Position numbers and translations under genes: made by a program. A stretch of DNA of 64,000 nucleotides, taken from sequence record NC_014467.1. The stretch is one strand, 5' to 3'. Positions 1,485-34,545 of the stretch are shown here, in pieces. The notes beneath the pieces are model-generated. The model saw only the letters and a program-made list of their open reading frames with translations. It ran no database searches and was not told the DNA's origin. The number at the start of each line of letters is the position of its first letter. Positions within the stretch are counted from its first letter, which is position 1. This DNA is from Escherichia phage RB16.

Positions 1485-1518
1485 AATATACAAAAACCCC
1501 TCGCGATATGCAAGGGGT
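1485..1518 (-). promoter_or_regulatory. terminator-hairpin/promoter cassette (-35 TTGCAT inside hairpin, 17-nt spacer, -10 TATATT)
   Basis: minus strand reads CCCCTTGCAT ATCGCGAGGGG TTTTTG TATATT; -10 rc of 1485-1490, -35 rc of 1508-1513. Confidence 0.5.
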
Positions 1519-1524
1519 TTTCGA

Positions 1525-2169
1525 TTAATTAAACTTATTGTACAGCATGAAGTTTACACCGATTGAACTTAGGGAGGTACAAGCTCGTTCCAGGTCGTCC
1601 GCTTCAATTTCGATAACGAATTTCGTTCGTATTAAAGCTGGCGCGACTTCTTCGACAGAAGGTGTAGTGACTTCTACGACAGGTTTATATACGTTCTTAT
1701 CATGATCAGGAACATCATCGAGATACTTCAACATTTGATTGATGTATCGTTTATCTGAGTATACAAACCGCTTCGCATTCGTCAGAAGAGAACGCATTTT
1801 AGAGCGGGTTGTAACTTTTGTACTTTCTTTGTATCCGCTACTTTCGGTGTTAAGAAAGTTTGGATTGCTATCCAGCATAATGATAGACGCTAGATTGTTT
1901 TTGTGGAAGTATCCCACGAGTTCATTACGAGACTGAGAGAAAACAAGCACATAAGCCTCTTCACCTACCAGATACATTTGTATATGTACTGGCGCTGTAA
2001 ACATTTTGTTTATGATTTTATGGAATCGAGTGTTTTCCGATAAACTGCGTTGTCTTGTATAACTTTTGAAAATGTTATCTTTGACAATGGTCGCCATCGT
2101 TTCGATGTGGTTTAGCGATTTCCCAAGTAACGGGTTCAGAAAAACTTCTTTTTTCGGTACATAAGCCAT
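1525..2169 (-). CDS. hypothetical protein (214 aa)
   Basis: ORF track; no motif recognised. Confidence 0.5.
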   Translation of the reverse strand: MAYVPKKEVFLNPLLGKSLNHIETMATIVKDNIFKSYTRQRSLSENTRFHKIINKMFTAPVHIQMYLVGEEAYVLVFSQSRNELVGYFHKNNLASIIMLDSNPNFLNTESSGYKESTKVTTRSKMRSLLTNAKRFVYSDKRYINQMLKYLDDVPDHDKNVYKPVVEVTTPSVEEVAPALIRTKFVIEIEADDLERACTSLSSIGVNFMLYNKFN

Positions 2170-2185
2170 ATTTCAAATTCTCTTT

Positions 2186-2476
2186 TTAGTGCATGAAAGA
2201 TTTAACGTACTTCAATATTTCTTCACGACATGTGTCAACGCTTGTGTTTTCGGCAATCATAGCATGACAAAGTATCTCACCGTCAAGCCAAAACGTCAGC
2301 ATGTATTGAATATCACGACCTTCTGTTGCTTCCTGATGATACTTGATTTTCGCGAAAGCAGTTTCGATACTTTCGGTTACTGTCAACATTTCGGAATCAC
2401 CATCTACAGCAGCCATTTCCCCAGCTTCTTCGCTGAATTCGCTTTCCAGTTCTTCCCAGTATACTATCGTTATCAT
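2186..2476 (-). CDS. hypothetical acidic protein (96 aa)
   Basis: ORF track. Confidence 0.45.
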   Translation of the reverse strand: MITIVYWEELESEFSEEAGEMAAVDGDSEMLTVTESIETAFAKIKYHQEATEGRDIQYMLTFWLDGEILCHAMIAENTSVDTCREEILKYVKSFMH

Positions 2477-2479
2477 TGA

Positions 2480-2620
2480 TTACCCCAAACATACTTTACA
2501 TTTGCATAAAGGGCATTCAGCCTCTTTGATGCGTAGACGTTTCGTTGTTGTCTTCTTCTCCGTATTGTGATCATATACATGAAGACAACGGAAGCAGATC
2601 ACCCAACGTTTATCCGTCAT
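2480..2620 (-). CDS. possible small Cys-rich protein (46 aa; CxxC...CPLCKCKVC)
   Basis: hand translation MTDKRWVICFRCLHVYDHNTEKKTTTKRLRIKEAECPLCKCKVCLG; below ORF-track size cutoff; overlaps next gene by 11 nt. Confidence 0.2.
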   Translation of the reverse strand: MTDKRWVICFRCLHVYDHNTEKKTTTKRLRIKEAECPLCKCKVCLG

Positions 2621-3077
2621 AACCGCCACCGCACTTAACCTCACCTTCAATGAACAGTTCGCGGTTGTCTCTCAAAAGATTGTATTTCTTTTCGAGTTCC
2701 GGCCCGAATGCGTCAGCGTCTTCATAATAGCTATAATTATAACAACCGCATTCATCATCCCATTCAGGTTCATCACCGCGTTCGTTGAAGTGTACGACTT
2801 TGAGATCGTCAACTCCAGACTCTTTCATTTTATCCCAGATATACCGGATGTCAACGCTATGGTAACTGAATGCTTCAAGGGTGATGTTATCACCATCGAT
2901 TTGAGGGATACCCCATTTAGGACGTTGGTCATCGGTGATGATATCAAGCAAAGATTCTACGTTTTCGTGTCCGTAAATCTTCGCGACCTCTTCCTCTTTA
3001 CCAGGACGAACAAGCCCGATCCCGATAATAAAGCTACTGCTTGAACTGTTACTTACAAAACCAGAACGGATCTTCAT
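2610..3077 (-). CDS. hypothetical protein, paralog family A (shared N-terminus MKIRSGFVSNSSSSSFI)
   Basis: first 17 aa identical to ORF 6488-7000, nucleotide differences synonymous; Cys motif ECGCYNYSYY. Confidence 0.55.
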   Translation of the reverse strand: MKIRSGFVSNSSSSSFIIGIGLVRPGKEEEVAKIYGHENVESLLDIITDDQRPKWGIPQIDGDNITLEAFSYHSVDIRYIWDKMKESGVDDLKVVHFNERGDEPEWDDECGCYNYSYYEDADAFGPELEKKYNLLRDNRELFIEGEVKCGGGYDG

Positions 3078-3265
3078 CGTCTTGCCTCATATTTCGCGTT
3101 CTCAGCGATTTTTTCTTGATAGATGTTATATGACATTACCAGAGGCGCAACCGCCACGATAAGCCCTATAAAGCACACAGAGAACTCACGTTTATTGAAA
3201 GCCAGGAACGCAATTGCGCTCCCGACCACGAACACACCCAGCGCTAATAAGAAGAATAACGTCAT
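3074..3265 (-). CDS. small membrane protein (63 aa, two hydrophobic segments)
   Basis: MTLFFLLALGVFVVGSAIAFLAF...GLIVAVAPLVM hydrophobic stretches. Confidence 0.45.
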   Translation of the reverse strand: MTLFFLLALGVFVVGSAIAFLAFNKREFSVCFIGLIVAVAPLVMSYNIYQEKIAENAKYEARR

Positions 3266-3879
3266 TTTGTGAGGGTGTCCATTTGTTTTGATTTTTCCAA
3301 CAGGGTTTTGATTACCGTATCCATCGCCTGTTCTGTATCACCATCATGATAGATGATCGCGGTTTGATGCAAACCTTTCACCAGACGATTGATAATGTAC
3401 GCCATTTCGGTCGGTAACAGTTTACCCGTTTTGTTGAATTTTTCAAACAGATTGAACAGTTCTTCGTTATTCCCTTTCTTACGGAAATTGAAGTTGTGCA
3501 TCCCAGACAGAAGACTATCCAGATACAGAACTGTTTTGTTATCAGAGCGGAGGTGTCCACCGATTTTGTAGTAGTTGCTGAAAACGTATGGTGCTTCACG
3601 AACATCATCGATGTCGAAACCAGCATCATCGATATTGCCTACGTGGGAGAAGAAATCCGCATCGTTATCGAACAGATTGATCGCGCCTTTCTTGTATGGG
3701 AATCCAGCCAGGTTAATGACTCCCTTTTCATACGCATCATCGTTATCAACGACAACGTATTCAGGAAGCATAGGGGCATATGGTTTGTTTTTGTCGTGGT
3801 TTTCGCGATACGCTAAAGGTTCAGCCAGATAGAGGATATCGCCTTGTTTGACTTCATCCCAAAAGATATTACGTGACAT
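3262..3879 (-). CDS. hypothetical protein (205 aa; start trimmed to MSRNIFWD to avoid overlap with upstream gene)
   Basis: ORF track 3262-4047 trimmed to the Met at 3879. Confidence 0.45.
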   Translation of the reverse strand: MSRNIFWDEVKQGDILYLAEPLAYRENHDKNKPYAPMLPEYVVVDNDDAYEKGVINLAGFPYKKGAINLFDNDADFFSHVGNIDDAGFDIDDVREAPYVFSNYYKIGGHLRSDNKTVLYLDSLLSGMHNFNFRKKGNNEELFNLFEKFNKTGKLLPTEMAYIINRLVKGLHQTAIIYHDGDTEQAMDTVIKTLLEKSKQMDTLTK

Positions 3880-3919
3880 ATTAAATTCCTCAACATGCCC
3901 CCTTTCGGGGGCTATATCA

Positions 3920-6139: not shown

Positions 6140-6149
6140 TTAAATTTTC

Positions 6150-7940: not shown

Positions 7941-7955
7941 AATATAACCCTCACG

Positions 7956-7975
7956 AAAAGCCCCTTTCGGGGCTT
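7956..7975 (-). terminator. intrinsic terminator-like hairpin
   Basis: AGCCCC-GAAA-GGGGCT followed by TTTTCG on minus strand. Confidence 0.5.
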
Positions 7976-7981: not shown

Positions 7982-8269
7982 TCAGTGTCCGAAGATGTGT
8001 TTAACAGACTCAGCGAAAGCGTAGAACACTGGATTGTTTTCTTTCAACATCGCTTCCGATTTCAGAAGGTAATCGCTTTTGAACTTAGTACCGAACAGGC
8101 AGTAAGAAAACGATTTGTCCCAGTAAAAGCAGTTATAACCACCATCAACAAATCTCACTTCAACCAACAAATAACCCACATCTTCCGGTTTGGTATTTGA
8201 ATAATCTTTCAGAAGGTTAGCACTTGCTACTTTGTATGCGTTACCAGCAACCAAATCGTTATAAGTCAT
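7982..8269 (-). CDS. hypothetical protein (95 aa)
   Basis: ORF track. Confidence 0.4.
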   Translation of the reverse strand: MTYNDLVAGNAYKVASANLLKDYSNTKPEDVGYLLVEVRFVDGGYNCFYWDKSFSYCLFGTKFKSDYLLKSEAMLKENNPVFYAFAESVKHIFGH

Positions 8270-8319
8270 GATGTGTTCCTTTTCAGTTTCGTTTCGATAA
8301 AGCTAAGGTATCACTGTTC

Positions 8320-8751
8320 TTACGAAGATGCAAACACTTTTTTGAAGAATTTTGTTTCCGGTCTTTCTTTGTATGGACGCATGGTCAATTCTTTACCATC
8401 CAACACAATTGGTTCTCCGTTCAGTTCGATCAGGATAAAGTTGCCTTTGCGATACTTCAACACACCCTGGCTTGCCGACCATTCATCATTATCCCAGTGG
8501 TTATAATGCCACTCAACAACGGTATCGATTGGTATTTCTGGTTGATTTCTCATAGCTTTCCTTCGTTCTGATGCTTCTTTCAATTGTCGTATTTGTGGGA
8601 TCAACTGTTGTGGTGGAACAGTATCTGCTTGTTTCAGTGCCTTTCGAGCTTGTTCAACAAACCATTCATATTTCGGACGGTGTTTAAGTTGTTCACGCAG
8701 TCGGGCATTCTCTTGTTCGGCAATACTTGCACGTTTTCTATAATCAGTCAT
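8320..8751 (-). CDS. hypothetical protein (about 144 aa; start trimmed to MTDYRKRAS)
   Basis: ORF track 8320-8814 trimmed to avoid overlap with 8759-9013. Confidence 0.4.
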   Translation of the reverse strand: MTDYRKRASIAEQENARLREQLKHRPKYEWFVEQARKALKQADTVPPQQLIPQIRQLKEASERRKAMRNQPEIPIDTVVEWHYNHWDNDEWSASQGVLKYRKGNFILIELNGEPIVLDGKELTMRPYKERPETKFFKKVFASS

Positions 8752-13141: not shown

Positions 13142-13410
13142 AATGATTTCCTCTCAAATTCTTCATCAGATTTCCAGTACACGTTAAAGTTACGGCAATC
13201 ATGATCAGAAGTCAATGTATATTTTTCACTTGTTTTTTCATCGGTGATAACCATCGTTTCATTTTCGATAGAGTCAACACCATACACAAACACTTTATCA
13301 CCGCGCGTATTCAGGAACGCGTCACCTTCTTCAATCAACTGCCAACAGTTCACTGGTAAACCGCCCGTGCTTATCGGACGGCTAACAAGACAGTAAGGGT
13401 GTTTAATCAT
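13138..13410 (-). CDS. hypothetical protein (90 aa)
   Basis: ORF track. Confidence 0.4.
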   Translation of the reverse strand: MIKHPYCLVSRPISTGGLPVNCWQLIEEGDAFLNTRGDKVFVYGVDSIENETMVITDEKTSEKYTLTSDHDCRNFNVYWKSDEEFERKSL

Positions 13411-13601
13411 TTAAATTCTTCCATTGCATAGGAAGTAAGATCTTTGAAATACCTTGCGGTGTTGCCTTCTGGGTTGTTTGTAATCTCCATCAGGATAACA
13501 GCACTATCAACTCCTGCTTTCTTAGCCATGAATGAAAGGGCTTCGGTAGCAATAATCGTTGCTTTCATAACATCAGCTTTAGAAACGTTGATTGTATTCA
13601 T
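13407..13601 (-). CDS. hypothetical protein (64 aa)
   Basis: ORF track; preceded by promoter cassette. Confidence 0.4.
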   Translation of the reverse strand: MNTINVSKADVMKATIIATEALSFMAKKAGVDSAVILMEITNNPEGNTARYFKDLTSYAMEEFK

Positions 13602-13637
13602 TTTTCTTCCTTTTCATTAATCACTTGGTATGTGTGT

Positions 13638-13675
13638 ATAATACAAAAGCCCTCACGAGAACGCAAGGGCTTTTT
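13638..13675 (-). promoter_or_regulatory. terminator-hairpin/promoter cassette (-35 TTGCGT in hairpin, 17-nt spacer, -10 TATTAT)
   Basis: minus strand AGCCCTTGCGTTCTCGTGAGGGCTTTTG TATTAT; terminates NatV transcript and can start the next. Confidence 0.5.
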
Positions 13676-13774
13676 ATTAAATTCCGTATAAATCTGGATT
13701 CACAATAACCGCACATAAAAGATCATCTATATGTGCGGCTTCTTGTTCTAAGGTTTGTTTAGATGAATGTGCTT

Positions 13775-14836
13775 TCAAGCAACCCCCGTAAAGGCGTTTA
13801 CTATCTGGAAATGATCATCGAAGAATTCCCCTTGTCGTTGTACGACCTCATGTAAGGGCATCCAGAACGCCTCTGCTGCATCGTCAGCGCCTCCCATAAT
13901 GCGGGGCAGACTTCCATCATTGTTAGGTTCTAACTTGATGTATTGCGCTACAGTCGGTTTTGAGAAGTGTACGGAACGCTTCGGATGATCAAACAACATC
14001 GAATTGCGAATTGAACCACGGATAACCTTTTCAGGAACCTTGATCCGAACCTCTTCGAGCAATTCACGGATCGCACAATCCAGGAATGTTTCGTTTGCGT
14101 TTTTGTGTCCACCTGGCAGGGCCAACGCGCCTTTACCCGGTGCAAACTTACGACGAATTACCAGAAGGTGATTGTTACACACAACCACGCTATCACCCGT
14201 ACAACAGTTTAACGCGTCGGGGTATGGGTACGCTTTGAACTTCTCCAGTTCATCTTCCCATTTCTCGAACTCGTAGTACAAGCGCCAGAACGTATCGGTC
14301 ATCATCCATCCGTTAAGAGAACCCACGACAGCAGCAGGAACATAACGGGCGATCTTCTCGTCCCATCCATTTTTATGTAAAAATATGGTTGGACGCAGGT
14401 CGGTAGCAGATAAATCTTTGCCGTCAACCTTAACCGGATCAACCGGAACATGAGTCCATCCGAACGCTTTAAGCCAGTACGAATCAGCATCTTTTTCGTA
14501 ACCGTAGATCGCGATGTTATCGCCTTTAGTTTCGTCGATTGCTGTACGAACAGAGGTTTTCCATTTTTCTTCATTGTAAAGGTAATCTGGAATCGGTTTG
14601 AATTGCACACGGGACACATCTTCATATTTGAACTCAGACAGTAACCAGCTTGTAATCATACGTTCCCGTTCGGTTGCTGTTAGCGGGTTTAAAACGTTAG
14701 GGTAAGCATAAGCGGAACCCAGGAGGATATAAACGGCCTTCGACTCTTCAAGTGCTTTACGCACCATTGCCGCATGACCATTATGGAAGGGTTGGAATCT
14801 GCCAATTACGACAGCTTTATCAAATTTGTATTTCAT
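13775..14836 (-). CDS. natV: bifunctional NMN adenylyltransferase / Nudix hydrolase (NatV-like)
   Basis: N-terminal GRFQPFHNGH (HxGH nucleotidyltransferase motif) and C-terminal Nudix box GGHKNANETFLDCAIRELLEEVRIKV; start set at MKYKFDKAVVIGRF. Confidence 0.8.
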   Translation of the reverse strand: MKYKFDKAVVIGRFQPFHNGHAAMVRKALEESKAVYILLGSAYAYPNVLNPLTATERERMITSWLLSEFKYEDVSRVQFKPIPDYLYNEEKWKTSVRTAIDETKGDNIAIYGYEKDADSYWLKAFGWTHVPVDPVKVDGKDLSATDLRPTIFLHKNGWDEKIARYVPAAVVGSLNGWMMTDTFWRLYYEFEKWEDELEKFKAYPYPDALNCCTGDSVVVCNNHLLVIRRKFAPGKGALALPGGHKNANETFLDCAIRELLEEVRIKVPEKVIRGSIRNSMLFDHPKRSVHFSKPTVAQYIKLEPNNDGSLPRIMGGADDAAEAFWMPLHEVVQRQGEFFDDHFQIVNAFTGVA

Positions 14837-14861
14837 AACGTGCTCCACGTTTAAAGGGTAA

Positions 14862-14960
14862 TCATAAAACAGACGCAATAATCAATACACCAAGCAAACC
14901 GCCAATAAAGCCGAAGAATAGCGAAATGAAGATAGATAAGATGATCTGTTTTATGTTCAT
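14862..14960 (-). CDS. possible single-pass membrane micropeptide (32 aa)
   Basis: hand translation MNIKQIILSIFISLFFGFIGGLLGVLIIASVL; lies between SPFH gene and natV. Confidence 0.25.
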   Translation of the reverse strand: MNIKQIILSIFISLFFGFIGGLLGVLIIASVL

Positions 14961-14985
14961 TATAGTATTCTCGTTTTAAGAATCA

Positions 14986-15006
14986 AGCCCCCAAGGAAAG
15001 GGGGCT
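14986..15006 (-). terminator. stem-loop after SPFH gene
   Basis: AGCCCCC-TTTCCTT-GGGGGCT. Confidence 0.4.
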
Positions 15007-15014
15007 TTAAAATC

Positions 15015-15941: not shown

Positions 15942-16003
15942 TTAAGTTTATGTTTCAATTCGATAGTTATTCTATCATCACCATTCAGCTTGTCAAATAC
16001 TTT

Positions 16004-18559: not shown

Positions 18560-18961
18560 TTACTCTCCCAGTACGTAAACAAAGCGGTCTTCGATTGAAT
18601 CGTTAACACATTCGTAAATTCCCCCAGCGCGTACAGCTTTACGAATGCCGGATTTTACGATTTCCATGATCTCTTTGTTGCTTCCCCATACATTCAAATT
18701 GAAGTATAGCGCACATTCGATTGGATAGTCTTCTACGTTGCGATACACATCATCACTTTCACATACAAACAGTATGCGCTTTTCTTCTCCATATTCGAAG
18801 TAAATGCTAAACGCGTTCATACTGTTTTTATCAACAGTGATTTGAGTGATTTTAACGTTCGGTTTGCTTTTGAGTTCAGCAAGAACACTCTGAATAATAG
18901 ATAACGCATTCAGTTTAATAAGTCCGCATTTTCCTACAATAACACGATGTGATGTACTCAT
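18560..18961 (-). CDS. hypothetical protein (133 aa)
   Basis: ORF track; preceded by promoter cassette. Confidence 0.45.
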   Translation of the reverse strand: MSTSHRVIVGKCGLIKLNALSIIQSVLAELKSKPNVKITQITVDKNSMNAFSIYFEYGEEKRILFVCESDDVYRNVEDYPIECALYFNLNVWGSNKEIMEIVKSGIRKAVRAGGIYECVNDSIEDRFVYVLGE

Positions 18962-18989
18962 AATTCAATCCTCAATAGTTGGTACACAC

Positions 18990-19024
18990 ATAATAAAAAA
19001 GCCCCTGCAAAAATGCAAGGGCTT
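18990..19024 (-). promoter_or_regulatory. terminator-hairpin/promoter cassette (-35 TTGCAT, 17-nt spacer, -10 TATTAT)
   Basis: minus strand GCCCTTGCATTTTTGCAGGGGC TTTTTT ATTATG. Confidence 0.45.
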
Positions 19025-19028
19025 TCGA

Positions 19029-19677
19029 TTAAATAATTTGCTTTTCTTCTAACAGTTTCGCGGTATGGTTAACCATGCGAGCATAATCACGGGCTTCTTT
19101 CTTCGTATACTTGAAGCCCGCGTTATAGCTTGCCAGCGCCTTTTTCAAGTCGCCTTTGTGGTAATCAAGCCAGTATTCCAGTTCATGAATGGCAAACTTA
19201 GAACCTCCCCGAAGGGATTCGAGCTTATTGATTACTACGCGTTTGGAATATGATTTATCCATCCGTGCGGAAGCACTGTTTACAGTGACTTGCCAACAGC
19301 CATAAGCATGATGACCTTTTTTGCCCTTTCCGGTGTTCTCACATGCGCGAGATTCGATCCAGGCGATAGCCGCTAAATGATATCCCAAACGTTTCGATTT
19401 TTCTTTTTTCAGCAGGTTTTGCAGTCGTTAGATCATAGTCGTTGCCAACTCTGAAAGCATACTCCAAAACCTTTTTCTGCTTTGGTGTAATTTCGTCCAA
19501 TTCCTTGACATATGCAGGGGCATTGGCTGGTGCTTTCTTGATCACTGTTGCCTGTTGAAGCGGAAGTGTTGACTGAACAGCAGGAAGTTTTTCGATGAAT
19601 TCTCCTAGCGGATCTGTCTTTGCGTGACCAGAAAAAGAGCATAAGAAAATGAAAGGTAGTATCCATTTGAATCTCAT
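19029..19677 (-). CDS. soluble lytic transglycosylase (SLT domain) split over two overlapping frames; frameshift or pseudogene
   Basis: ORF 19339-19677 gives signal peptide MRFKWILPFIFLCSFSGHA; ORF 19029-19388 gives catalytic LAAIAWIESR...AYNAG; overlap contains an A6/T6 run at 19404-19409. Confidence 0.5.
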
Positions 19678-20234
19678 GGGCTTTCCTTATTATAAAAAGT
19701 TCCAAAATTTAACAACGCTGATTTTTTATAAGCGTTGCTTGCTTCTTCAGGATCATCAAAAGATCCCAAGTAGGTTGCTTTACCATTAATGGTTATTTGA
19801 GCAATCCACTTTTCATTTATAGTATTCCAAGTAACACCGATAAAACCAGAAGTATTAGTTTTCATCATACTTTTCTTTTGCTGATTTTGAGTATTAGTCA
19901 CTTCTTGCAAGTTGTCAATACCATCACCAAAAGAAACACCTTTCTTATGATCAATCATAACAGGAAGAGTACCTGTAGATACATAATACACGATGCGGTG
20001 TCTTCTAAACTGCTTTCCTTTGAAGTTTATAACGGTATATCCATCTTTCCGCAAGGTTCCTGCAAAAGAACCAACTTTAATTTTTCGGTTAGTTGATTTT
20101 ATCCATACACACGTACCGGAAACAACGTCAACGCTGATATATTCAAGTAATTCATCAATCAGTTGTTTTTCTTCTGATAGTGTACGCTCTCCCCATCCAT
20201 AAGATTTAGTCATGTTTAATACCTTTTGTAACAA
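19674..20234 (-). CDS. HNH homing endonuclease with AP2-type domain (paralog of 11414-11947)
   Basis: FRRHRIVYYVSTGTLP...IDHKKG...DNLQ and SGFIGVTW...KWIAQI...LGSF...EEA. Confidence 0.7.
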   Translation of the reverse strand: MLQKVLNMTKSYGWGERTLSEEKQLIDELLEYISVDVVSGTCVWIKSTNRKIKVGSFAGTLRKDGYTVINFKGKQFRRHRIVYYVSTGTLPVMIDHKKGVSFGDGIDNLQEVTNTQNQQKKSMMKTNTSGFIGVTWNTINEKWIAQITINGKATYLGSFDDPEEASNAYKKSALLNFGTFYNKESP

Positions 20235-21214: not shown

Positions 21215-21231
21215 GTATACCTCACGAAAAA

Positions 21232-21247
21232 AGGGGCCGAAGCCCCT
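21232..21247 (-). terminator. intrinsic terminator after phoH
   Basis: AGGGGC-TTCG-GCCCCT + TTTTTCG on minus strand. Confidence 0.55.
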
Positions 21248-24357: not shown

Positions 24358-24370
24358 ATTTCACCTACAA

Positions 24371-24390
24371 AAAAGCCCCTTTCGGGGCTT
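24371..24390 (-). terminator. intrinsic terminator
   Basis: AGCCCC-GAAA-GGGGCT + TTTTTTG on minus strand. Confidence 0.55.
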
Positions 24391-24659: not shown

Positions 24660-24699
24660 TTTGAATCCCCTTTAATCCGTTTCGTTGTCTACGAGAGAG

Positions 24700-24727
24700 A
24701 TATTATCATACTGGGGATTCATGTCAA
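24700..24727 (-). promoter_or_regulatory. sigma70-like promoter (TTGACA, 16-nt spacer, TAATAT)
   Basis: minus strand TTGACATGAATCCCCAGTATGATAATAT about 40 nt upstream of ATG at 24659. Confidence 0.5.
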
Positions 24728-24730
24728 CAC

Positions 24731-27774: not shown

Positions 27775-28049
27775 TTTACACTCCGTTTCAGTTTACGTTC
27801 GTCAGCCAGTTCTTTTTTGTACAGTTTAATGTACTTCCCGTTAAGGATGCGAAGCTGTTGGAAAACTTTGTTGCATAAAGCACGTTTCGCTTTGTATTCC
27901 GGCGTATTGCGGATTGATTCGATCGTCATACCCATTTCATTTTTAGGGTAAGCGCTCAATTCCCTGCCGATCTCCCTGTGCCAGTTGCTTAACTGGTCAC
28001 GCTTTGCTTTGTACTCTTCAAAAGTTAACATAACAATCTCCGGTTTCAT
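27771..28049 (-). CDS. hypothetical basic protein (92 aa)
   Basis: ORF track. Confidence 0.4.
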   Translation of the reverse strand: MKPEIVMLTFEEYKAKRDQLSNWHREIGRELSAYPKNEMGMTIESIRNTPEYKAKRALCNKVFQQLRILNGKYIKLYKKELADERKLKRSVK

Positions 28050-28096
28050 TTCTATGGGTGTAAGATAACATCATCCCACACCCAGCGCAAGCGATT

Positions 28097-28297
28097 TTAT
28101 TTTCCGTAAAGAACACAATATTCTTTATATTTTTCACGGGCTTTTTCTTCATTACTAAAGGAAACTCCCATTCCAAAATCAGAACCTTCGAACGTAACAT
28201 CCCACGATTCACACCCATCTTCCGAATAATAGGAAAGTGTTATTTTACGATCTTCAAGAACAAGTTGTTCAACAACAATATCAATTTCAGTAGTCAT
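28097..28297 (-). CDS. hypothetical protein (66 aa)
   Basis: ORF track. Confidence 0.4.
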   Translation of the reverse strand: MTTEIDIVVEQLVLEDRKITLSYYSEDGCESWDVTFEGSDFGMGVSFSNEEKAREKYKEYCVLYGK

Positions 28298-28440: not shown

Positions 28441-28688
28441 TTGATACGTACCGCGTTAAAAGCCTGGTTGCGCAGTTCATAAGCCTGTTCAAGCTGTTCA
28501 GTAGTGAACAGAGGACTATCGGTGTTAGTGGTGAAACTGCAAATGGTTTTGTTGTCGGCGTTTACTTCTTCAACAACGATTTCGTAACCCCAGATCCCGC
28601 TATACTCACATTTCACGTTCCGGTACTTGATGTAAACTGCTGCAACATCTTCTTTTTTGTAGTTCCGGCTTTTGTAGATGATTTCCAT
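28437..28688 (-). CDS. hypothetical protein (83 aa)
   Basis: ORF track; conserved leader motif upstream. Confidence 0.45.
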   Translation of the reverse strand: MEIIYKSRNYKKEDVAAVYIKYRNVKCEYSGIWGYEIVVEEVNADNKTICSFTTNTDSPLFTTEQLEQAYELRNQAFNAVRIK

Positions 28689-28742
28689 GATATCCTCCTT
28701 CGTTTCGATGTGTGTACAATAACAGATCAGGGTTATCGAGTT

Positions 28743-28926: not shown

Positions 28927-29205
28927 TTATGCCATTTTCTTAGCGATTTTCCACGCGGCTTTGAACTCAGGAACATCTTCAATCTCAACCCAGAAACCAG
29001 ATCCGAAACCATCGTTGTAGCAAGGACAACCGTCGCAGTAGTTTTCCCAGGTCATCACTTCACCACCAACAGAAGCACCAGTTTCCATCGCACGTAATGC
29101 ATCTTCAACCTTTTCCAGTTTTTCGGCGTTGTCGTCGTAAATGATGAAATACCATTTGCCGTTGTATTCGTTACCCAGTTTGATTGCTTCGCGAACAAGT
29201 TTCAT
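28927..29205 (-). CDS. hypothetical Cys-containing protein (92 aa)
   Basis: CDGCPCYNDG motif; start set at MKLVREAIK. Confidence 0.4.
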   Translation of the reverse strand: MKLVREAIKLGNEYNGKWYFIIYDDNAEKLEKVEDALRAMETGASVGGEVMTWENYCDGCPCYNDGFGSGFWVEIEDVPEFKAAWKIAKKMA

Positions 29206-29243
29206 GATGATTTCCTTTTTGTCTGTTTCGTTTCGATGTGTGT

Positions 29244-29272
29244 AATATAACAAAACCACTCACCATAGGCAA
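29244..29272 (-). promoter_or_regulatory. promoter cassette (-35 TTGCCT, 17-nt spacer, -10 TATATT) plus conserved leader
   Basis: minus strand TTGCCTATGGTGAGTGGTTTTGT TATATT ACACACATCGAAACGAAAC. Confidence 0.45.
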
Positions 29273-29298
29273 GGGGTTTCTTTAACAAAAAGTGCTAT

Positions 29299-30290: not shown

Positions 30291-30472
30291 AATATATCCC
30301 TCACAGGTTTATAACGTTCTTTTCCAGTGCCGTTGCATGAACTGCATTTTGGCGATCCGTAGTTATCATATCGCCCAGACCCATTACATGCAACACATTT
30401 CCGTAATTTACAGCCATACACGAACCGATTATTACATGCGGTTCGTGCTGCCTTGCGCTCATGGAAGTTCAT
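30278..30472 (-). CDS. small zinc-finger protein (CxxCxGxG repeats)
   Basis: CVACNGSG and CSSCNGTG repeats; ATGA overlap with next gene. Confidence 0.4.
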   Translation of the reverse strand: MNFHERKAARTACNNRFVYGCKLRKCVACNGSGRYDNYGSPKCSSCNGTGKERYKPVRDILCNM

Positions 30473-30672
30473 ACTTTGTTGTACACCTGAACAACCCACA
30501 TTTCGATATTTGGTGAGTAAGTAACGTTCACCATCGGCATAGTGCGGTATTTGTAAGCGGCTTTGTACGCGTCAAGTTCAGTCGGAACACAGAAAGAGAA
30601 ACCGTCGTCATAACGTTCTGCGTTAGAAACTTCACAACCAACTACAGCAGCAATATTTTTGTTCATGTTCAT
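30469..30672 (-). CDS. hypothetical protein (67 aa)
   Basis: ORF track; preceded by promoter cassette. Confidence 0.45.
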   Translation of the reverse strand: MNMNKNIAAVVGCEVSNAERYDDGFSFCVPTELDAYKAAYKYRTMPMVNVTYSPNIEMWVVQVYNKV

Positions 30673-30708
30673 GATGTTTTCCTTTCTGTGTTTCGTTTCG
30701 ATGTGTGT

Positions 30709-30745
30709 AATATAACAAAGCCCTTACAGTAATACAAGGGCTTTT
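30709..30745 (-). promoter_or_regulatory. terminator-hairpin/promoter cassette (-35 TTGTAT, 17-nt spacer, -10 TATATT)
   Basis: minus strand AAAAAGCCCTTGTATTACTGTAAGGGCTTTG TTATATT ACACACATCGAAACGAAAC. Confidence 0.5.
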
Positions 30746-30750
30746 TCAAT

Positions 30751-31059: not shown

Positions 31060-31589
31060 TTTGCAGCCTTATACATTTCAATTACGCGTTTCATGTGCTC
31101 TTGTGATTGAGGCACACCAGCGAAATTCAATTTAATGAAGAATTCAAGACGATCCTTTTTATTACATTCATCCAACCCCAGGGCAGGTAATGACAGGTTT
31201 TCAAAGGCGCGTTGTTCGTGTCGCTGCATATCGTCCCAGAACAGACGGGAACCATCCGACATAGGAATCCCTATCTCACCTTCATAAACTTTGATAATCG
31301 TCGTCAGGCGTTGCTTGCCGTCGATTACTTCGACCCAGTGAGATTCGTTAAACTCGCTATCAACAGCGATCGCGATAATACCGCAAGGGAAACCCGTGAT
31401 CAACGTGGTCAGGAATTCATCTTGTTCTTTCTGCGTCCACACATAGGGGCGCTGATATGATGGATTCAGATCCAGATCCTTATTTTTCCACCAGTGGATA
31501 TAACTTCCAACCATGATCGCATGTTCACGACTTCTGAAAGTTATCCGTTCACGAATTCGGTTACGGGCTGGGATATCATCTTTAGACAT
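31056..31589 (-). CDS. DUF262 / ParB-like nuclease-domain protein
   Basis: PSYQRPYVW...VIDGKQRLTT matches the YQRxxxW / DGQQR signature of the ParB/Srx-fold DUF262 domain. Confidence 0.5.
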   Translation of the reverse strand: MSKDDIPARNRIRERITFRSREHAIMVGSYIHWWKNKDLDLNPSYQRPYVWTQKEQDEFLTTLITGFPCGIIAIAVDSEFNESHWVEVIDGKQRLTTIIKVYEGEIGIPMSDGSRLFWDDMQRHEQRAFENLSLPALGLDECNKKDRLEFFIKLNFAGVPQSQEHMKRVIEMYKAAK

Positions 31590-31911
31590 TATGGATCACC
31601 CACAGCAATAAACAAGAATTGATAACCGCGAAAGTGGTACAAATTGCAGCAAAAACACGCGCATTATGAACATCAGTTTTCAGTTCTGCGATCTCTTGAT
31701 CCTTTTCGCTTTCGAATTCGTCGCGGGTTCCGTAATAGCCAGGATCAGCAGGGGTAGAGATACGCACCGCATCTTTTTCTACAATAGTCGCATAACCATT
31801 GTTTACATTTGTTGCACCGTACCAATCACCACGGTCATTGTTAATGATCAGGTGTTGCCCCTTTTCATTGTGCTTTGCTTCACCAGTGACAACTACACGT
31901 TTACCGTTCAT
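31582..31911 (-). CDS. hypothetical protein with C-terminal TM helix (109 aa)
   Basis: C-terminal VFAAICTTFAVINSCLLLWVI. Confidence 0.4.
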   Translation of the reverse strand: MNGKRVVVTGEAKHNEKGQHLIINNDRGDWYGATNVNNGYATIVEKDAVRISTPADPGYYGTRDEFESEKDQEIAELKTDVHNARVFAAICTTFAVINSCLLLWVIHNV

Positions 31912-31914
31912 AAT

Positions 31915-32175
31915 TTATTCCTTCACATGTTGTAACAGGAAGTCTAACAGATTTCCTTCCGCTTGCATAGCATAAACTTTATTAAGTTTTGCGATGTTTT
32001 GAAAATCAGAGGTTTCTGGGTATTCCCAATTACCATCATCAGAAACAATAGCACCCACTGATAAACCAGTTTCGGGGTTGCGAGTCAACGCCAGCCCCAG
32101 CGGGTGCAATATTTCTTTGTTGATTTTCCAGATCAGCCCCATATCGGACAGGGTGTTGAAATCAACAATTTTCAT
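31915..32175 (-). CDS. hypothetical protein (about 86 aa)
   Basis: ORF 31915-32262 trimmed to MKIVDFNT. Confidence 0.4.
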   Translation of the reverse strand: MKIVDFNTLSDMGLIWKINKEILHPLGLALTRNPETGLSVGAIVSDDGNWEYPETSDFQNIAKLNKVYAMQAEGNLLDFLLQHVKE

Positions 32176-32176
32176 G

Positions 32177-32563
32177 TTATGCCTTTGGGACAACACCGAA
32201 TGCCAGAAGACCCATACGATGATCGTTATCTGCCTCTTCACGGAAGAAATAGTATTGTTCATCGGAAATATCGATTACGGTGATACCCTCTTTCAGATAC
32301 GGCAACAGATATAACGGGATCAGCATCAAATCAGATTCACTGCTCCATTTACGGAAACCCAGATTTTCCATTTCTTCCCGCGTCAAATCATTAGGATCTA
32401 CCGGAAAGAAATTAGGCGATTTCATCAGGCGACCAGGAAGGTCACGAATATTGCTGATTGCGAATTCCGTTCCCCATGAAGTGTATTCAATAGGTTCGGC
32501 GGCACGGGTTGCGGTAGCAACGAGAATCATTTGGCACAGTTGAAAAGTATTTGGATTGCTCAT
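32177..32563 (-). CDS. hypothetical protein (128 aa)
   Basis: ORF track. Confidence 0.45.
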   Translation of the reverse strand: MSNPNTFQLCQMILVATATRAAEPIEYTSWGTEFAISNIRDLPGRLMKSPNFFPVDPNDLTREEMENLGFRKWSSESDLMLIPLYLLPYLKEGITVIDISDEQYYFFREEADNDHRMGLLAFGVVPKA

Positions 32564-32973
32564 GATATAGATCCCACAAGTTTAGTCAGAAGGTGTCCCA
32601 TAGTCTTACGCGCATGATCGCGGATCTGGCTATACGGAACATATTTGAAGTCATCCATTTCAGTAATGGTTCGACCGTTTTTAACGAAGGTTGAAGCGCA
32701 AACACATTTTTCTGCTTCGGGGTAATTATTACCCACATATACGAATAACACAAGCTCTTTTTTACTCGTATAATCAATCAGACCCAGGCTCAACAGTTCG
32801 TGTTGTTCAACTACAACGCCCGTTTCCTCGAAGCATTCACGGATAGCAGCATTGATCGGGGATTCGCCTTTTTCGATATGCCCCTTTGGGATGTCCCAAT
32901 GAGGCGTTTCGGTTGCGTGACCCATTAAAACGCTGCCGTTATTCAGAAAGAGAATACCAGCAGACCGTTCCAT
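32560..32973 (-). CDS. nudE: Nudix hydrolase (NudE-like)
   Basis: Nudix box GHIEKGESPINAAIRECFEETGV (Gx5Ex7REUxEExGU). Confidence 0.8.
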   Translation of the reverse strand: MERSAGILFLNNGSVLMGHATETPHWDIPKGHIEKGESPINAAIRECFEETGVVVEQHELLSLGLIDYTSKKELVLFVYVGNNYPEAEKCVCASTFVKNGRTITEMDDFKYVPYSQIRDHARKTMGHLLTKLVGSIS

Positions 32974-33212
32974 TACTGTGCTCCGAACTTGCGATCGTAT
33001 GCTGCCAGCGCTTTATCTGCTGCATCAACAGCCTGTGTGTGCTTGTTGTTTGAACGCTCAGTAAACACTTCGCGGTAAATCGCAGTCCAGAGATTGCGGC
33101 GGGTATGTTCACTTTCTTCGTTGACACGAGAAGCCGCAAAAGCATTATGCTCTTTGATTAGTTGCGCCAGTTGCACATCATGATTGTTTTGTTGAATAGC
33201 TGTAGAAGTCAT
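32973..33212 (-). CDS. hypothetical protein (79 aa)
   Basis: ORF track. Confidence 0.4.
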   Translation of the reverse strand: MTSTAIQQNNHDVQLAQLIKEHNAFAASRVNEESEHTRRNLWTAIYREVFTERSNNKHTQAVDAADKALAAYDRKFGAQ

Positions 33213-33475
33213 AATTCACCTATTTCTTTCAGTTCAGTTTTCAGTTTTTCGAGAGTTGATTGGTACTGAATGCCGTTTTCTGGGTTTGGCAGACGGGCAT
33301 AATACAGCGTACCAGTTTTGTTTATGTCGGACAACACCTCTTGATCGAGGGTAGCCGGATCAATACCGAAAGCCATTTTAAACATGGTTTCCGCGTCTGG
33401 GGCGAATCCGTGAGAGAATGCAAACCCCAGCTTTTTATCAAACTGCATCAGGGATACTTTATTCACTTTTTCCAT
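33209..33475 (-). CDS. hypothetical protein (start uncertain)
   Basis: ORF 33209-33595 trimmed; several candidate starts. Confidence 0.35.
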   Translation of the reverse strand: MEKVNKVSLMQFDKKLGFAFSHGFAPDAETMFKMAFGIDPATLDQEVLSDINKTGTLYYARLPNPENGIQYQSTLEKLKTELKEIGEL

Positions 33476-33761
33476 AATGTTCTTCGTAGTCATCGCATTC
33501 AGGGAGATAAGTTTCGCAGAACATGCACAGCGTGAAGAAAGTAGGCTGGCGAATCCCGATATTATCAGGTAAGTACATCCAGAACGTGTTAGCAAACACG
33601 ATGAACGTTTTCAGGTTTTCAACGGTTACGGTACTGACACCATCATAACCGGATTGAGCAATTGCGCGTTCCAGGGGAACGGGGTATTGTTCGCAGTAAT
33701 CGACGTAATGATCGCTTGTTACAAGCGCATTAGCCGCCTTTACGAGATCGATAATTTTCAT
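33459..33761 (-). CDS. hypothetical protein (100 aa)
   Basis: ORF track. Confidence 0.4.
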   Translation of the reverse strand: MKIIDLVKAANALVTSDHYVDYCEQYPVPLERAIAQSGYDGVSTVTVENLKTFIVFANTFWMYLPDNIGIRQPTFFTLCMFCETYLPECDDYEEHYGKSE

Positions 33762-34096
33762 GCTTTTACATATTCCACTTTAACAGGTTTGGCGATAAGG
33801 TGATCTTTGGTGTAACCTTGTCCGTCGCAAACATCACAAACGATTTTGAAATCTTCCATTTGGTCGACCCATCCAGAATCAGGCAATCCAGAAGGGTACG
33901 TGTTGAAGGTTTTAACACTGTATCCTTTCCCATCACACTTAGGGCATTTATACGGGTATTTCGATTTGATCGCACTATACAATTGACCCAGTGTGGTCGA
34001 ATGATCAAAGTGTATAACAAATGCTTCAATGTCAGCAATACGCAGTTCGTTTGGCTTGATCACAGTAAACACATTTGAAGGTATGTTTGAGCGCAT
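33758..34096 (-). CDS. small zinc-finger protein (CPKCDGKGY ... CDVCDGQGY)
   Basis: two CxxCxGxG motifs; start trimmed to MRSNIPSN. Confidence 0.4.
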   Translation of the reverse strand: MRSNIPSNVFTVIKPNELRIADIEAFVIHFDHSTTLGQLYSAIKSKYPYKCPKCDGKGYSVKTFNTYPSGLPDSGWVDQMEDFKIVCDVCDGQGYTKDHLIAKPVKVEYVKA

Positions 34097-34106
34097 AATA
34101 TATTTC

Positions 34107-34247
34107 TCACTTAAAGAATTTTTTGATGAAAGAGAGGAACAATCCACCACCGAACATGATCCAGTATCCCGCGCCGTCACCGTGAAACAGGACGTAAACC
34201 GCGACACCATAACAAAAGATTTCTGCAATATTCAGTAAGTTTCTCAT
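34107..34247 (-). CDS. possible small membrane protein (46 aa)
   Basis: hand translation MRNLLNIAEIFCYGVAVYVLFHGDGAGYWIMFGGGLFLSFIKKFFK. Confidence 0.25.
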   Translation of the reverse strand: MRNLLNIAEIFCYGVAVYVLFHGDGAGYWIMFGGGLFLSFIKKFFK

Positions 34248-34336
34248 AACTCCCTCCTTTGTCTACACCAGGTATTTTACCAGAAAATAGACTACTGTCA
34301 ACAACAAAGTTTTATCAACCCACTTATCACCAGTCA

Positions 34337-34477
34337 TCAGTAGTCACCCATAGGTTGAGAAGAAGCAACGCTCAATACGCGGAAAGAACATTTGTTCCAT
34401 TCACAATATGCTTTCGCACAGTGAACACTACCTTTCATCACAAACCCGTTTGAGAACACCAACCAGTAAAGTTTCAT
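34337..34477 (-). CDS. small Cys-containing protein (46 aa)
   Basis: MKLYWLVFSNGFVMKGSVHCAKAYCEWNKC...; start follows promoter cassette and SD AGGAGG. Confidence 0.35.
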   Translation of the reverse strand: MKLYWLVFSNGFVMKGSVHCAKAYCEWNKCSFRVLSVASSQPMGDY

Positions 34478-34504
34478 GATTACCTCCTTTGTTTCGACAC
34501 CCCT

Positions 34505-34545
34505 AATATAACAAAAGCCCTTGCACGAATGCAAGGGCTTTTTCA
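34505..34545 (-). promoter_or_regulatory. terminator-hairpin/promoter cassette (-35 TTGCAT in 9-bp stem, 18-nt spacer, -10 TATATT)
   Basis: minus strand AAAAAGCCCTTGCATTCGTGCAAGGGCTTTTGT TATATT. Confidence 0.5.

What the first reader, a model, noticed from the sequence alone, without database searches (positions are those of the whole stretch)
1485..34545. Recurrent compact cassette in which the terminator hairpin contains the -35 element of the next promoter
At least six intergenic sites on the minus strand (around 1485-1518, 13638-13675, 18990-19024, 29244-29272, 30709-30745 and 34505-34545) share the architecture GC-rich hairpin (AGCCCTTGCAT...AGGGCT), T-run, 17-18 nt spacer counted from a TTG(C/T)(A/G)T hexamer lying in the hairpin, then TATATT/TATTAT, then a roughly 30-nt leader with SD. 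The same sequence therefore terminates the upstream transcript and supplies the -35/-10 for the downstream gene. Hairpin formation could modulate promoter strength.
Basis: seen in the sequence. Interest (0 to 1): 0.55.

Follow-up and report, generated by a model that had tools for sequence, protein, structure and literature searches.

The report
Known T4-like phage terminator-promoter cassettes (PeSLs)
Six intergenic sites in this RB43-like T4-type phage really do pack a terminator hairpin and the next gene's early promoter into one ~90-nt unit, with the promoter's -35 inside the hairpin, but this is the already published "PeSL" cassette, so it is an ordinary feature of these phages.

Summary
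Six minus-strand intergenic sites share one architecture: A-run, GC-rich hairpin, T-run, TATATT/TATTAT, leader, SD and ATG. A TTGNNT hexamer in the 5' arm lies 17 nt (18 at one site) upstream of the -10. A family-independent structural scan finds 5 such sites against 0.03 expected by chance.

The window is a Pseudotevenvirus (RB43 group). All six sites are orthologous in RB43, Miller and Lw1. Comparative data support a dual function. The stem shows compensatory changes. The hairpin is more stable in the sense RNA. The TTG is invariant in 32 of 32 distinct copies while its pairing partners drift.

The feature is not new. Arbiol et al. 2010 and Comeau et al. 2014 defined PeSLs (promoter-early stem-loops). 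Their definition includes a subclass whose stem-loop overlaps the -35, and they showed promoter and terminator activity in phi1/RB49. Nolan et al. 2006 predicted all six RB43 orthologues as early promoters, four with a terminator nested inside.

Cassette-mediated recombination is only suggested here: one clear mosaic cassette in Lw1, and breakpoint enrichment at p = 0.07. Novelty: already known. Interest: low.

The parts
1444..1527 (-). Cassette s1. Hairpin 1491-1523, -35 TTGCAT 1508-1513, -10 TATATT 1485-1490, predicted start near 1478, SD AAGGAA 1454-1459, ATG 1444-1446 (70-aa ORF). The upstream stop TAA lies 4 nt before the A-run.
   Evidence: (dG -21.6 kcal/mol, z -7.9). Orthologous to RB43 Pe:67362 with terminator 67332-67352.
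13599..13680 (-). Cassette s2. Hairpin 13645-13674, -35 TTGCGT 13661-13666, -10 TATTAT 13638-13643, ATG 13599-13601 (64-aa ORF). The downstream gene differs from the one in RB43, Miller and Lw1.
   Evidence: (dG -19.4 kcal/mol). RB43 Pe:79242.
18959..19032 (-). Cassette s3. Hairpin 18997-19026, -35 TTGCAT 19013-19018, -10 TATTAT 18990-18995, SD GAGG, ATG 18959-18961 (133-aa ORF). It lies downstream of the vs.1-like gene.
   Evidence: (dG -21.2 kcal/mol). RB43 Pe:85900 with terminator 85869-85890.
29203..29286 (-). Cassette s4. Hairpin 29252-29280 with one internal mismatch, -35 TTGCCT 29267-29272, TGn-extended -10 TATATT 29244-29249, ATG 29203-29205 (frd.1-like gene, 92 aa).
   Evidence: (dG -11.5 kcal/mol). 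RB43 Pe:95419 with terminator 95389-95409.
30670..30750 (-). Cassette s5. Hairpin 30717-30744, -35 TTGTAT 30732-30737, TGn-extended -10 TATATT 30709-30714, ATG 30670-30672 (67-aa ORF).
   Evidence: (dG -13.1 kcal/mol). RB43 Pe:96875.
34475..34548 (-). Cassette s6. Perfect 13-bp hairpin 34513-34542, -35 TTGCAT 34529-34534, 18-nt spacer, TGn-extended -10 TATATT 34505-34510, SD AAGGAGG, ATG 34475-34477 (46-aa ORF). The upstream stop TGA overlaps the A-run.
   Evidence: (dG -20.5 kcal/mol). RB43 Pe:100921 with terminator 100890-100911.
28047..28099 (-). Degraded copy. It keeps TTGCGC, a 17-nt spacer, TATCTT and the ACACCCAT leader start, but has no stem.
   Evidence: (6.2 bits)
28686..28724 (-). 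Degraded half copy. TGTTATTGTACACACATCGAAACGAAGGAGG plus ATG. The -10 is spoiled (TATTGT) and there is no hairpin or -35.
   Evidence: (5.6 bits)
8267..8322 (-). Leader-only remnant: ATCGAAACGAAAC...AAAGGAACACATCATG, with no hairpin or promoter.

Best explanation
These are PeSLs (promoter-early stem-loops), the composite terminator/early-promoter cassettes of T4-like phages. Here they take the form typical of the RB43/KP15 lineage, where the stem-loop overlaps the -35.

Proposed mechanism:
1. A transcript arriving from the upstream early gene, whose stop codon lies 0-20 nt before the hairpin, folds a 10-14 bp GC-rich hairpin followed by a U-rich tract (UUUUGUUAUAUU). Host RNA polymerase then terminates or attenuates within the next promoter's -10 region.
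2. On the duplex DNA the same sequence is read by sigma70 holoenzyme. The elements are the TTG of the 5' arm as the -35, a 17 +/- 1 nt spacer, TATATT/TATTAT as the -10, usually a TGn extension, and an A-run at about -40 to -44 that probably acts as an UP-like element and also pairs with the U-tract.
3. Transcription restarts about 7 nt downstream of the -10. It produces a 21-32 nt leader with an SD for a small early gene, so each gene or small gene group is transcriptionally insulated.
4. Because the ~90-nt unit is repeated, it also offers short homology for recombination between copies.

Shown here: the anatomy, non-randomness, orthology, stem covariation, sense-strand bias, TTG invariance and one mosaic cassette. 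Inferred: actual termination, actual initiation and start sites, and the UP-element role.
For: - Anatomy and spacing.
- Non-random occurrence: (5 observed against 0.03 expected).
- Stable hairpins.
- Taxonomy: the window is a Pseudotevenvirus, 90-96% identical to RB43, Miller, Lw1 and CfP1.
- Orthology: six cassettes at orthologous positions in RB43, Miller and Lw1, and three of three in further relatives.
- Covariation, from 32 distinct copies: G-C/C-G at stem position -4 (20/10) and A-T/C-G/G-C at +4. TTG is invariant in 32 of 32, while its partners vary (TA 19/TG 13, TA 19/TG 10, GC 21/GT 11).
- Strand bias: the sense hairpin is on average 3.6 kcal/mol more stable than the antisense one and never less stable. 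A TGn extension is present in 23 of 32 copies.
- Nolan et al. 2006 supplements: all six RB43 orthologues were predicted as early promoters, including that genome's top scores of 31.2, 29 and 27.4. Four have TransTerm terminators nested inside. The paper also notes an A-rich -40 to -44 UP-like region.
- Arbiol et al. 2010 (PMC2839356): defines PeSLs, with subclasses in which the stem-loop overlaps the -35 or the -10, and gives lacZ evidence for promoter and terminator activity.
- Comeau et al. 2014 (PMC4122927): extends PeSLs across T4-like phages and describes degraded "half" PeSLs. Three such remnants are seen here.
- Recombination: the Lw1 site-1 cassette is a mosaic of a site-4-type 5' half and a site-1-type 3' half. 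At s4 and s5 the upstream flank is about 60% identical while the downstream part is 85-100% identical. At s2 the cassette is kept while both flanks are replaced.
- Distribution: about 12 copies in a complete genome. The core is present in 178 phage records, and several annotate it as a terminator.
Against: - No transcript ends have been mapped for this phage or its close relatives, so termination efficiency and the start sites are predictions.
- The -35 hexamers match TTGACA at only 3-4 of 6 positions (TTGCAT, TTGCCT, TTGCGT, TTGTAT). Many copies carry a TGn extended -10, so the -35 may contribute little.
- In a related lineage the orthologous site has a short hairpin with no TTG plus a TGn-extended -10. 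An embedded -35 is therefore not required for the site to persist.
- The copies are orthologues and paralogues that may homogenise one another, so the counts are not independent events.
- Breakpoint enrichment at cassette junctions is not significant (5/6 against 32/74, p = 0.07).
Confidence: 0.88

Rival explanations
1. The inverted repeat is a DNA operator. A dimeric phage or host protein binds the palindrome that overlaps the -35 and represses these early promoters, for example at the early-to-middle switch. On this view RNA-level termination is incidental.
For: The repeat is a near-perfect palindrome centred over the -35 to -20 region, which is a typical operator position. The CCC...GGG core is nearly invariant. 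Arbiol et al. speculated that the conserved GGGG...CCCC stem might be the target of a DNA-binding protein.
Against: - About a third of the pairs opposite the TTG are G.U wobbles. These break DNA dyad symmetry but keep RNA pairing.
- Stability is biased towards the sense transcript in every copy.
- G-C to C-G swaps and variable loop lengths of 3-5 nt (one of 8) change the half-site sequence and spacing.
- A U-rich tract always follows the stem.
- Plain hairpins of the same style occur without any promoter.
- No candidate binding protein was identified or sought.
Confidence: 0.05
2. The elements are terminators or 3'-end stabilising hairpins only. The TTG-N17-TATATT match is not a working promoter, and the downstream genes are expressed by readthrough from distant promoters.
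For: The -35 hexamers are weak (3-4 of 6). Generic sigma70 consensus scans in this AT-rich genome find as many promoter-like sites as shuffles do. Public records annotate these sites only as terminators.
Against: - TTG is invariant in 32 of 32 copies while its partners vary. T-to-C would strengthen pairing in the 10-13 copies that have a G partner, yet it is never seen.
- The spacer is fixed at 17 +/- 1 nt despite varying loop and T-run lengths.
- The -10 is conserved as TAnnnT, with TGn in 23 of 32 copies.
- The conserved leader and SD follow at a fixed distance.
- RB43 orthologues scored highest among that genome's predicted early promoters.
- PeSLs cloned from phi1 were strong promoters.
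- Plain terminators in the same region (GCCCCGAAAGGGGC) lack all these promoter features.
Confidence: 0.05
3. The hairpin acts at the DNA level. A cruciform, or a hairpin on a transiently single strand, forms under supercoiling or replication and switches the promoter off.
For: The -35 lies inside an inverted repeat of 10-14 bp with a short loop, which is geometrically able to extrude.
Against: Wobble positions would be T.G and C.A mismatches in the two cruciform arms, so selection is acting on RNA pairing rather than DNA symmetry. The region from -45 to -14 stays duplex in an open complex (established knowledge of sigma70 open complexes). No data indicate extrusion.
Confidence: 0.02

Closest known systems
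PeSLs (promoter-early stem-loops) of T4-like phages: Arbiol et al. 2010, Genome Biol Evol 2:140 (PMC2839356); Comeau et al. 2014, Genome Biol Evol 6:1611 (PMC4122927)
   Same: - Composite intergenic cassette: an AT-rich or A-rich stretch, a sigma70-type -35/-10 with about 17 nt spacing, a GC-rich stem-loop, then the SD and start codon of a small early ORF.
- Repeated many times in hyperplastic regions.
- A described subclass has the stem-loop overlapping the -35.
- Degraded half copies occur.
- Copies lie near indels and gene replacements.
   Different: The published detailed catalogues cover RB49/phi1, T4/PST and KVP40/nt-1. For RB43 only "PeSL-like sequences" near g43 were mentioned. In RB49/phi1 the commonest placement is between the -35 and -10, or over the -10, with a near-perfect TTGACA. 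Here one homogeneous family uses TTGCAT inside the 5' arm, usually with a TGn extended -10. Mini-circle formation was not tested here.
Predicted early promoters and TransTerm terminators of RB43: Nolan et al. 2006, Virol J 3:30 (PMC1524935), Additional files 3 and 6
   Same: The six orthologous RB43 positions are listed as early promoters: Pe:67362, 79242, 85900, 95419, 96875 and 100921. Four have a terminator nested inside the promoter coordinates.
   Different: The parts of the paper read here list the two feature sets separately and do not comment on the overlap. It covers a different isolate, which is 91-95% identical to this window.
Morons of lambdoid phages (Hendrix et al. 2000, as discussed in PMC2839356)
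   Same: Small accessory genes are bracketed by their own promoter and terminator, which insulates them from neighbouring transcription.
   Different: In morons the promoter and terminator are separate elements flanking one gene, they are not a repeated conserved cassette, and they are not proposed to be recombination substrates.
Ordinary intrinsic terminators in the same window (GCCCC-GAAA-GGGGC and GGGGC-UUCG-GCCCC tetraloop hairpins)
   Same: They have a GC-rich stem and a U-tract, sit immediately after a stop codon, and are on the same strand.
   Different: They have no TTG in the stem, no -10 and no conserved leader. The SD and ATG follow directly. They serve as an internal control, showing that the promoter features of the six cassettes are not a by-product of terminators.

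Membership tests
PeSL (promoter-early stem-loop cassette) | Sigma70-like early promoter: -35 and -10 hexamers about 17 nt apart | tested here: met
   TTGNNT, then 17 nt (18 at s6), then TATATT/TATTAT at all six sites. Among 32 distinct copies the spacer is 17 nt in 22, 18 nt in 9 and 16 nt in 1, and TTG is invariant. This is a sequence-level test only.
PeSL (promoter-early stem-loop cassette) | Stable stem-loop adjacent to or overlapping the promoter (five placements are described, including overlap with the -35) | tested here: met
   Hairpins of 10-14 bp, dG -11.5 to -21.6 kcal/mol, z -4.1 to -7.9. The 5' arm contains the -35. Compensatory changes occur at two stem positions.
PeSL (promoter-early stem-loop cassette) | [quoted passage not shown] | tested here: met
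   AAA is invariant at 5-7 nt upstream of the TTG (about -40 to -42), and the neighbouring positions are A in 26-28 of 32 copies.
PeSL (promoter-early stem-loop cassette) | Shine-Dalgarno and start codon of the downstream ORF at the 3' end, with the upstream gene's stop codon at the 5' end | tested here: met
   An SD and ATG lie 21-32 nt after the predicted start site. The upstream stop codon lies 0-20 nt before the hairpin.
PeSL (promoter-early stem-loop cassette) | Repeated copies concentrated in hyperplastic early regions, mostly upstream of small ORFs of unknown function | tested here: met
   Six copies lie in the minus-strand early region (1-36 kb) and none in the late structural block at 40-64 kb. 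The downstream ORFs are 46-133 aa. EcL22g has about 12 copies genome-wide.
PeSL (promoter-early stem-loop cassette) | Association with insertions, deletions or replacements between close relatives (recombination between copies) | tested here: inconclusive
   There is a mosaic cassette in Lw1, and discordant or replaced flanks in 14 of 30 cassette-by-relative comparisons. Enrichment over ordinary gene junctions is 5/6 against 32/74, Fisher p = 0.07.
PeSL (promoter-early stem-loop cassette) | Demonstrated promoter and terminator activity; mini-circle formation | not testable with these tools
   This was shown only for phi1/RB49 PeSLs by lacZ reporters and PCR.
Intrinsic (Rho-independent) terminator | GC-rich stem, short loop and U-rich tract, functional in the direction of transcription | tested here: met
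   The stem has 4-7 G-C pairs, the loop is 3-5 nt (8 at s5), and the tract after the GC stem is UUUUGUUAUAUU-like. The sense fold is more stable than the antisense fold. TransTerm called four RB43 orthologues at confidence 100. Activity was not measured.
Rfam RNA families | Match to any curated covariance model at its gathering score | tested here: not met
   There are no matches in the whole window on either strand.

The most novel reading that the evidence does not exclude
Termination would release the RNA while polymerase sits on the next promoter's -10, with the -35 only about 20 bp behind it. The overlap may therefore have been selected to hand the same polymerase straight to re-initiation. 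Post-termination retention and sliding of E. coli RNAP on DNA is documented (PMC6978380, PMC10372574). On this reading each cassette is a reset point that converts variable upstream readthrough into a fixed downstream initiation rate. The lineage-specific register of stem against promoter would then tune that coupling. Nothing here tests this, and it goes beyond the published PeSL model.
Probability: 0.08. Interest if true: 0.55.

Novelty: already known. Interest (0 to 1): 0.15.

Why it matters
It matters mainly for annotation and for engineering. These cassettes mark the transcription-unit boundaries of the early accessory genes of RB43/KP15-type phages, many of which are candidate Klebsiella, Enterobacter and Cronobacter therapy phages. 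They are also natural, compact insulator-plus-promoter parts. The one modest addition here is the asymmetry in the RB43-group family: the TTG in the 5' arm is frozen while its 3'-arm partners drift through G.U pairs. That is a clean comparative signature of one sequence serving two functions. The concept itself, its experimental basis and the RB43 orthologues are already published.

Tried and rejected
- Generic sigma70 and terminator consensus scans were uninformative overall, because counts equalled those in shuffles. They did flag s3, s5 and s6 as the longest terminator-like stems.
- A single dot-bracket on the MAFFT alignment was abandoned. Loop lengths of 3-5 nt shift the register of the 3' arm, so each copy was folded separately and pairs were tabulated relative to the TTG.
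- The first breakpoint script failed because one file holds several loci. It was redone.
- The profile search found no cassette in the more distant loci L011-L021. Direct reading showed different stem/promoter registers there.
- Rfam returned no family.
- A literature search for PeSL work after 2014 found nothing relevant beyond the two founding papers.
- The DNA operator and cruciform readings were rejected on the wobble and strand-bias evidence.
- A strong claim of recombination hot-spots was rejected because p = 0.07.
- I did not build a covariance model or run protein searches, because the question did not need them.


Full report

Yes. On the minus strand, each of the six stated sites reads as follows: upstream stop codon, A-run, GC-rich hairpin, T-run, TATATT or TATTAT, a short leader, an SD and an ATG. 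The exact coordinates are in the parts list.

A TTGNNT hexamer lies in the 5' arm of every hairpin. It is TTGCAT at three sites, and TTGCGT, TTGCCT and TTGTAT at one site each. It sits 17 nt upstream of the -10 at five sites and 18 nt upstream at s6.

As RNA the hairpins fold at -11.5 to -21.6 kcal/mol, and none of 200 shuffles per site folds as well. Site s4 is the weakest, with one internal mismatch.

A profile built from the six copies recovers exactly those six at 44-47 bits, all on the minus strand. The next minus-strand hit scores 6 bits. A scan that ignores the family's sequence and asks only for the architecture finds 5 sites, against a mean of 0.03 in 100 dinucleotide-preserving shuffles. 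That scan required TTG inside a stem of at least 7 bp, a 16-18 nt spacer, a -10 matching at least 5 of 6 and a T-run. The pattern is therefore far beyond chance.

**2. What genome is this, and what surrounds the sites?**

The window is a T4-like myovirus of the genus Pseudotevenvirus. It is 90-96% identical to RB43, Citrobacter phage Miller, Lw1, CfP1 and IME-CF2.

Positions 1-37 kb form a minus-strand block of small, mostly uncharacterised early genes. Among them are recognisable T4 early genes: tk, vs.1, frd.1, nudE, 57B, nrdC.11 and rI. Positions 40-64 kb hold plus-strand baseplate, tail and head genes.

An intergenic map shows that the six cassettes are one of several regulatory layouts in this block:
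- Plain tetraloop terminators, GCCCC-GAAA-GGGGC and GGGGC-UUCG-GCCCC, followed directly by an SD and ATG.
- Hairpin-free promoters with a perfect TTGACA, in the intergenic gaps 15942-16003, 24660-24730 and 34211-34336.
- A terminator followed by a separate promoter (14837-15014).
- Three degraded relatives of the cassette that have lost the hairpin (28047-28099, 28686-28724 and 8267-8322).

**3. Comparative evidence for two functions in one sequence**

All six cassettes sit at orthologous positions in RB43, Miller and Lw1. The three cassettes covered by further IMG/VR loci, which include CfP1 and KP15, are also present there.

From these I collected 32 distinct sequences, folded each one, and tabulated the pairs by position relative to the TTG. 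Two results matter.

- **The stem covaries.** Position -4 is G-C in 20 copies and C-G in 10. Position +4 is A-T in 16, C-G in 6 and G-C in 3.
- **The three stem positions that make up the TTG behave asymmetrically.** The 5'-arm bases are T, T and G in 32 of 32 copies. Their 3'-arm partners vary freely: A or G (19/13), A or G (19/10) and C or T (21/11). A T-to-C change would strengthen pairing wherever the partner is G, yet it never occurs.

That asymmetry is the signature expected if the 5' arm is constrained both as a stem and as a -35.

The many G.U pairs also make the hairpin more stable in the sense RNA than in the antisense RNA. The mean difference is 3.6 kcal/mol, and the sense fold is never the less stable one. 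This points to an RNA structure read in the direction of transcription. It argues against a symmetric DNA operator, a cruciform or a bidirectional terminator.

A TGn extended -10 is present in 23 of 32 copies, including s4, s5 and s6 in the window. AAA at about -40 to -42 is invariant. This matches the UP-like A-rich tract that Nolan et al. noted for T4-like early promoters.

These copies are related to one another by descent and probably by conversion, so the counts are not independent events.

**4. How it most likely works**

1. Upstream early transcripts fold the hairpin and terminate or attenuate in the U-rich tract, which runs into the next -10.
2. Sigma70 holoenzyme reads the same duplex as the -35 (the TTG in the 5' arm), the spacer (loop, 3' arm and T-run) and the -10.
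3. Transcription restarts about 7 nt downstream of the -10, giving a 21-32 nt leader.
4. The promoter's own RNA does not contain the hairpin.

Steps 1-3 are inferred from sequence and from experiments on the same class of element in other phages. The anatomy, conservation and covariation are shown here.

**5. Comparison with what is known**

This is the published PeSL. Arbiol et al. 2010 (PMC2839356) defined promoter-early stem-loops in RB49 and phi1 as an AT-rich stretch, a sigma70-type promoter, a stem-loop, and the SD and start codon of a small ORF. They distinguished five placements of the stem-loop, explicitly including overlap with the -35 or the -10. They also showed, with lacZ reporters, that the stem-loop terminates about as well as rrnB T1 and that whole PeSLs are very strong promoters.

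They proposed that the repeated cassettes serve as linkers for modular shuffling, and they detected mini-circles. Comeau et al. 2014 (PMC4122927) extended PeSLs to T4/PST and KVP40/nt-1 and described degraded half PeSLs.

For RB43 itself, the supplements of Nolan et al. 2006 (PMC1524935) list all six orthologous sites as predicted early promoters. These include that genome's highest scores. Four have a TransTerm terminator nested inside the promoter coordinates. Public records for Miller, Margaery, CfP1 and KP15 annotate these hairpins as terminators.

The membership test is met on every sequence-level criterion. It is inconclusive for recombination association and untestable for measured activity.

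**6. Recombination**

There is qualitative support.
- The Lw1 cassette at site 1 is a clean mosaic. Its hairpin, -10 and early leader match the site-4 type, and the rest matches site 1. The crossover lies in the shared CGAAACG leader motif.
- At s4 and s5, most relatives keep the leader and downstream gene at 85-100% identity, while the upstream flank falls to about 60%. Unrelated 200-nt pairs score 41.5 +/- 15% on this measure, with a maximum of 63.5%.
- At s2 the cassette is retained at 83-88% identity while both flanks are replaced.

However, this whole region is riddled with breakpoints, about 17 per pairwise comparison. Cassette junctions are hit in 5 of 6 cases, against 32 of 74 for ordinary gene junctions (Fisher p = 0.07). 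That is suggestive only.

**7. Distribution**

A complete Pseudotevenvirus genome, EcL22g (177,652 bp), has about 12 intact copies. Six lie in the region homologous to this window.

The 56-nt core alone matches 178 phage records at 812 places. All are RB43-type or KP15-type T4-like phages of Klebsiella, Enterobacter, Cronobacter, Citrobacter, Escherichia and related hosts.

In more distant T4-like relatives, the orthologous site upstream of frd.1 still combines a stem-loop with an early promoter, but in other registers:
- One group has a short hairpin with no TTG and a TGn-extended -10.
- Another has a T4-type GTTTAC -35, with the stem spanning the spacer and the -10.

The superposition of stem-loop and promoter is therefore conserved, while the register is specific to each lineage.

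**8.

The suggestion that hairpin formation could modulate promoter strength has no support. The hairpin is not part of the promoter's own transcript. The G.U wobbles argue against a DNA-level hairpin.

A different coupling remains possible but untested. RNA polymerase released from the RNA at the -10 could re-initiate at the overlapping promoter, given documented post-termination sliding and re-initiation.

**9. Verdict**

The dual-function reading is well supported by comparative sequence evidence and by published experiments on the same class of element. The feature is already known, as PeSLs and as the predicted RB43 early promoters and terminators. Interest is low.

Noticed in passing
window 471-498, 3886-3912, 7950-7975, 24366-24390 (GCCCC-GAAA-GGGGC); 21222-21246, 35250-35270 (GGGGC-TTCG-GCCCC); all minus strand: This is a second recurrent hairpin family. 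It has 5-6 bp GC stems closed by GAAA or UUCG tetraloops, then a T-run, and the SD and ATG of the next gene follow directly with no promoter. They look like attenuators or 3'-end stabilisers inside early operons.
   Followed up: partly
window 37812-37849, both strands: The hairpin AAAAAAAGCCCCAACCGAAAGGAAGGGGCTTTATTTTT lies between convergent genes (the gp2-like gene on the minus strand and a plus-strand ORF). It has an A-run on one side and a T-run on the other, so it looks like a bidirectional terminator. It is conserved in RB43, Miller and Lw1, and Miller annotates it on both strands.
   Followed up: partly
window 28047-28099, 28686-28724, 8267-8322 (minus strand): These are degraded cassette remnants. 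The first keeps TTGCGC-N17-TATCTT without a stem. The second keeps only a spoiled -10 plus the ACACACATCGAAACGAA leader. The third keeps only the leader. They resemble the half PeSLs of Comeau et al. 2014.
   Followed up: partly
leaders of s1 and s6 (AGGGGTGT(T/C)GAAAC) versus s4 and s5 (ACACACATCGAAACGAAACA); window 1460-1484, 34480-34504, 29215-29243, 30680-30708: Two alternative initial-transcribed or discriminator sequences, one G-rich and one ACAC-rich, are shared between non-orthologous cassettes. Both are followed by a common CGAAAC motif. That motif is where the Lw1 mosaic cassette crosses over. Whether it has any role beyond providing recombination homology, for example in translation or RNase processing, is unknown.
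   Followed up: no
L011-L013, L017 and L014-L021, about 130 nt upstream of the frd.1-like gene: More distant T4-like relatives have other stem/promoter registers at the orthologous site. One type has GTTTAC-N17/18-TACTAT, with the stem AGGGCTAT/ATAGCCCT spanning the spacer and the -10. The other has the short hairpin GCCC-CGCG-TGGGC plus TGCTATTAT and no -35.
   Followed up: partly
window 13404-13803 and 19651-20210: Two segments differ from the relatives. At site s2, the 64-aa gene downstream (13407-13601) and the sequence upstream of the cassette differ from RB43, Miller and Lw1. Separately, a 558-nt segment at 19651-20210 is absent from all three relatives.
   Followed up: no
window 36757-37079 (minus-strand gap): This is a 323-nt AT-rich intergenic region between divergent transcription units. 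It contains repeated GCGAAGCGA/TCGCTTCGC motifs and TATATA runs. It is possibly a divergent promoter or origin-like region. It was not examined.
   Followed up: no
RB43 record, plus strand at 67321, 85858 and 100879 (Nolan et al. 2006, Additional file 3): The 2006 HMM also called weak early promoters on the opposite strand at three cassettes, with scores of 6-14. These are most likely artefacts of the palindromic stem. My profile shows the same mirror hits at 13-25 bits.
   Followed up: partly
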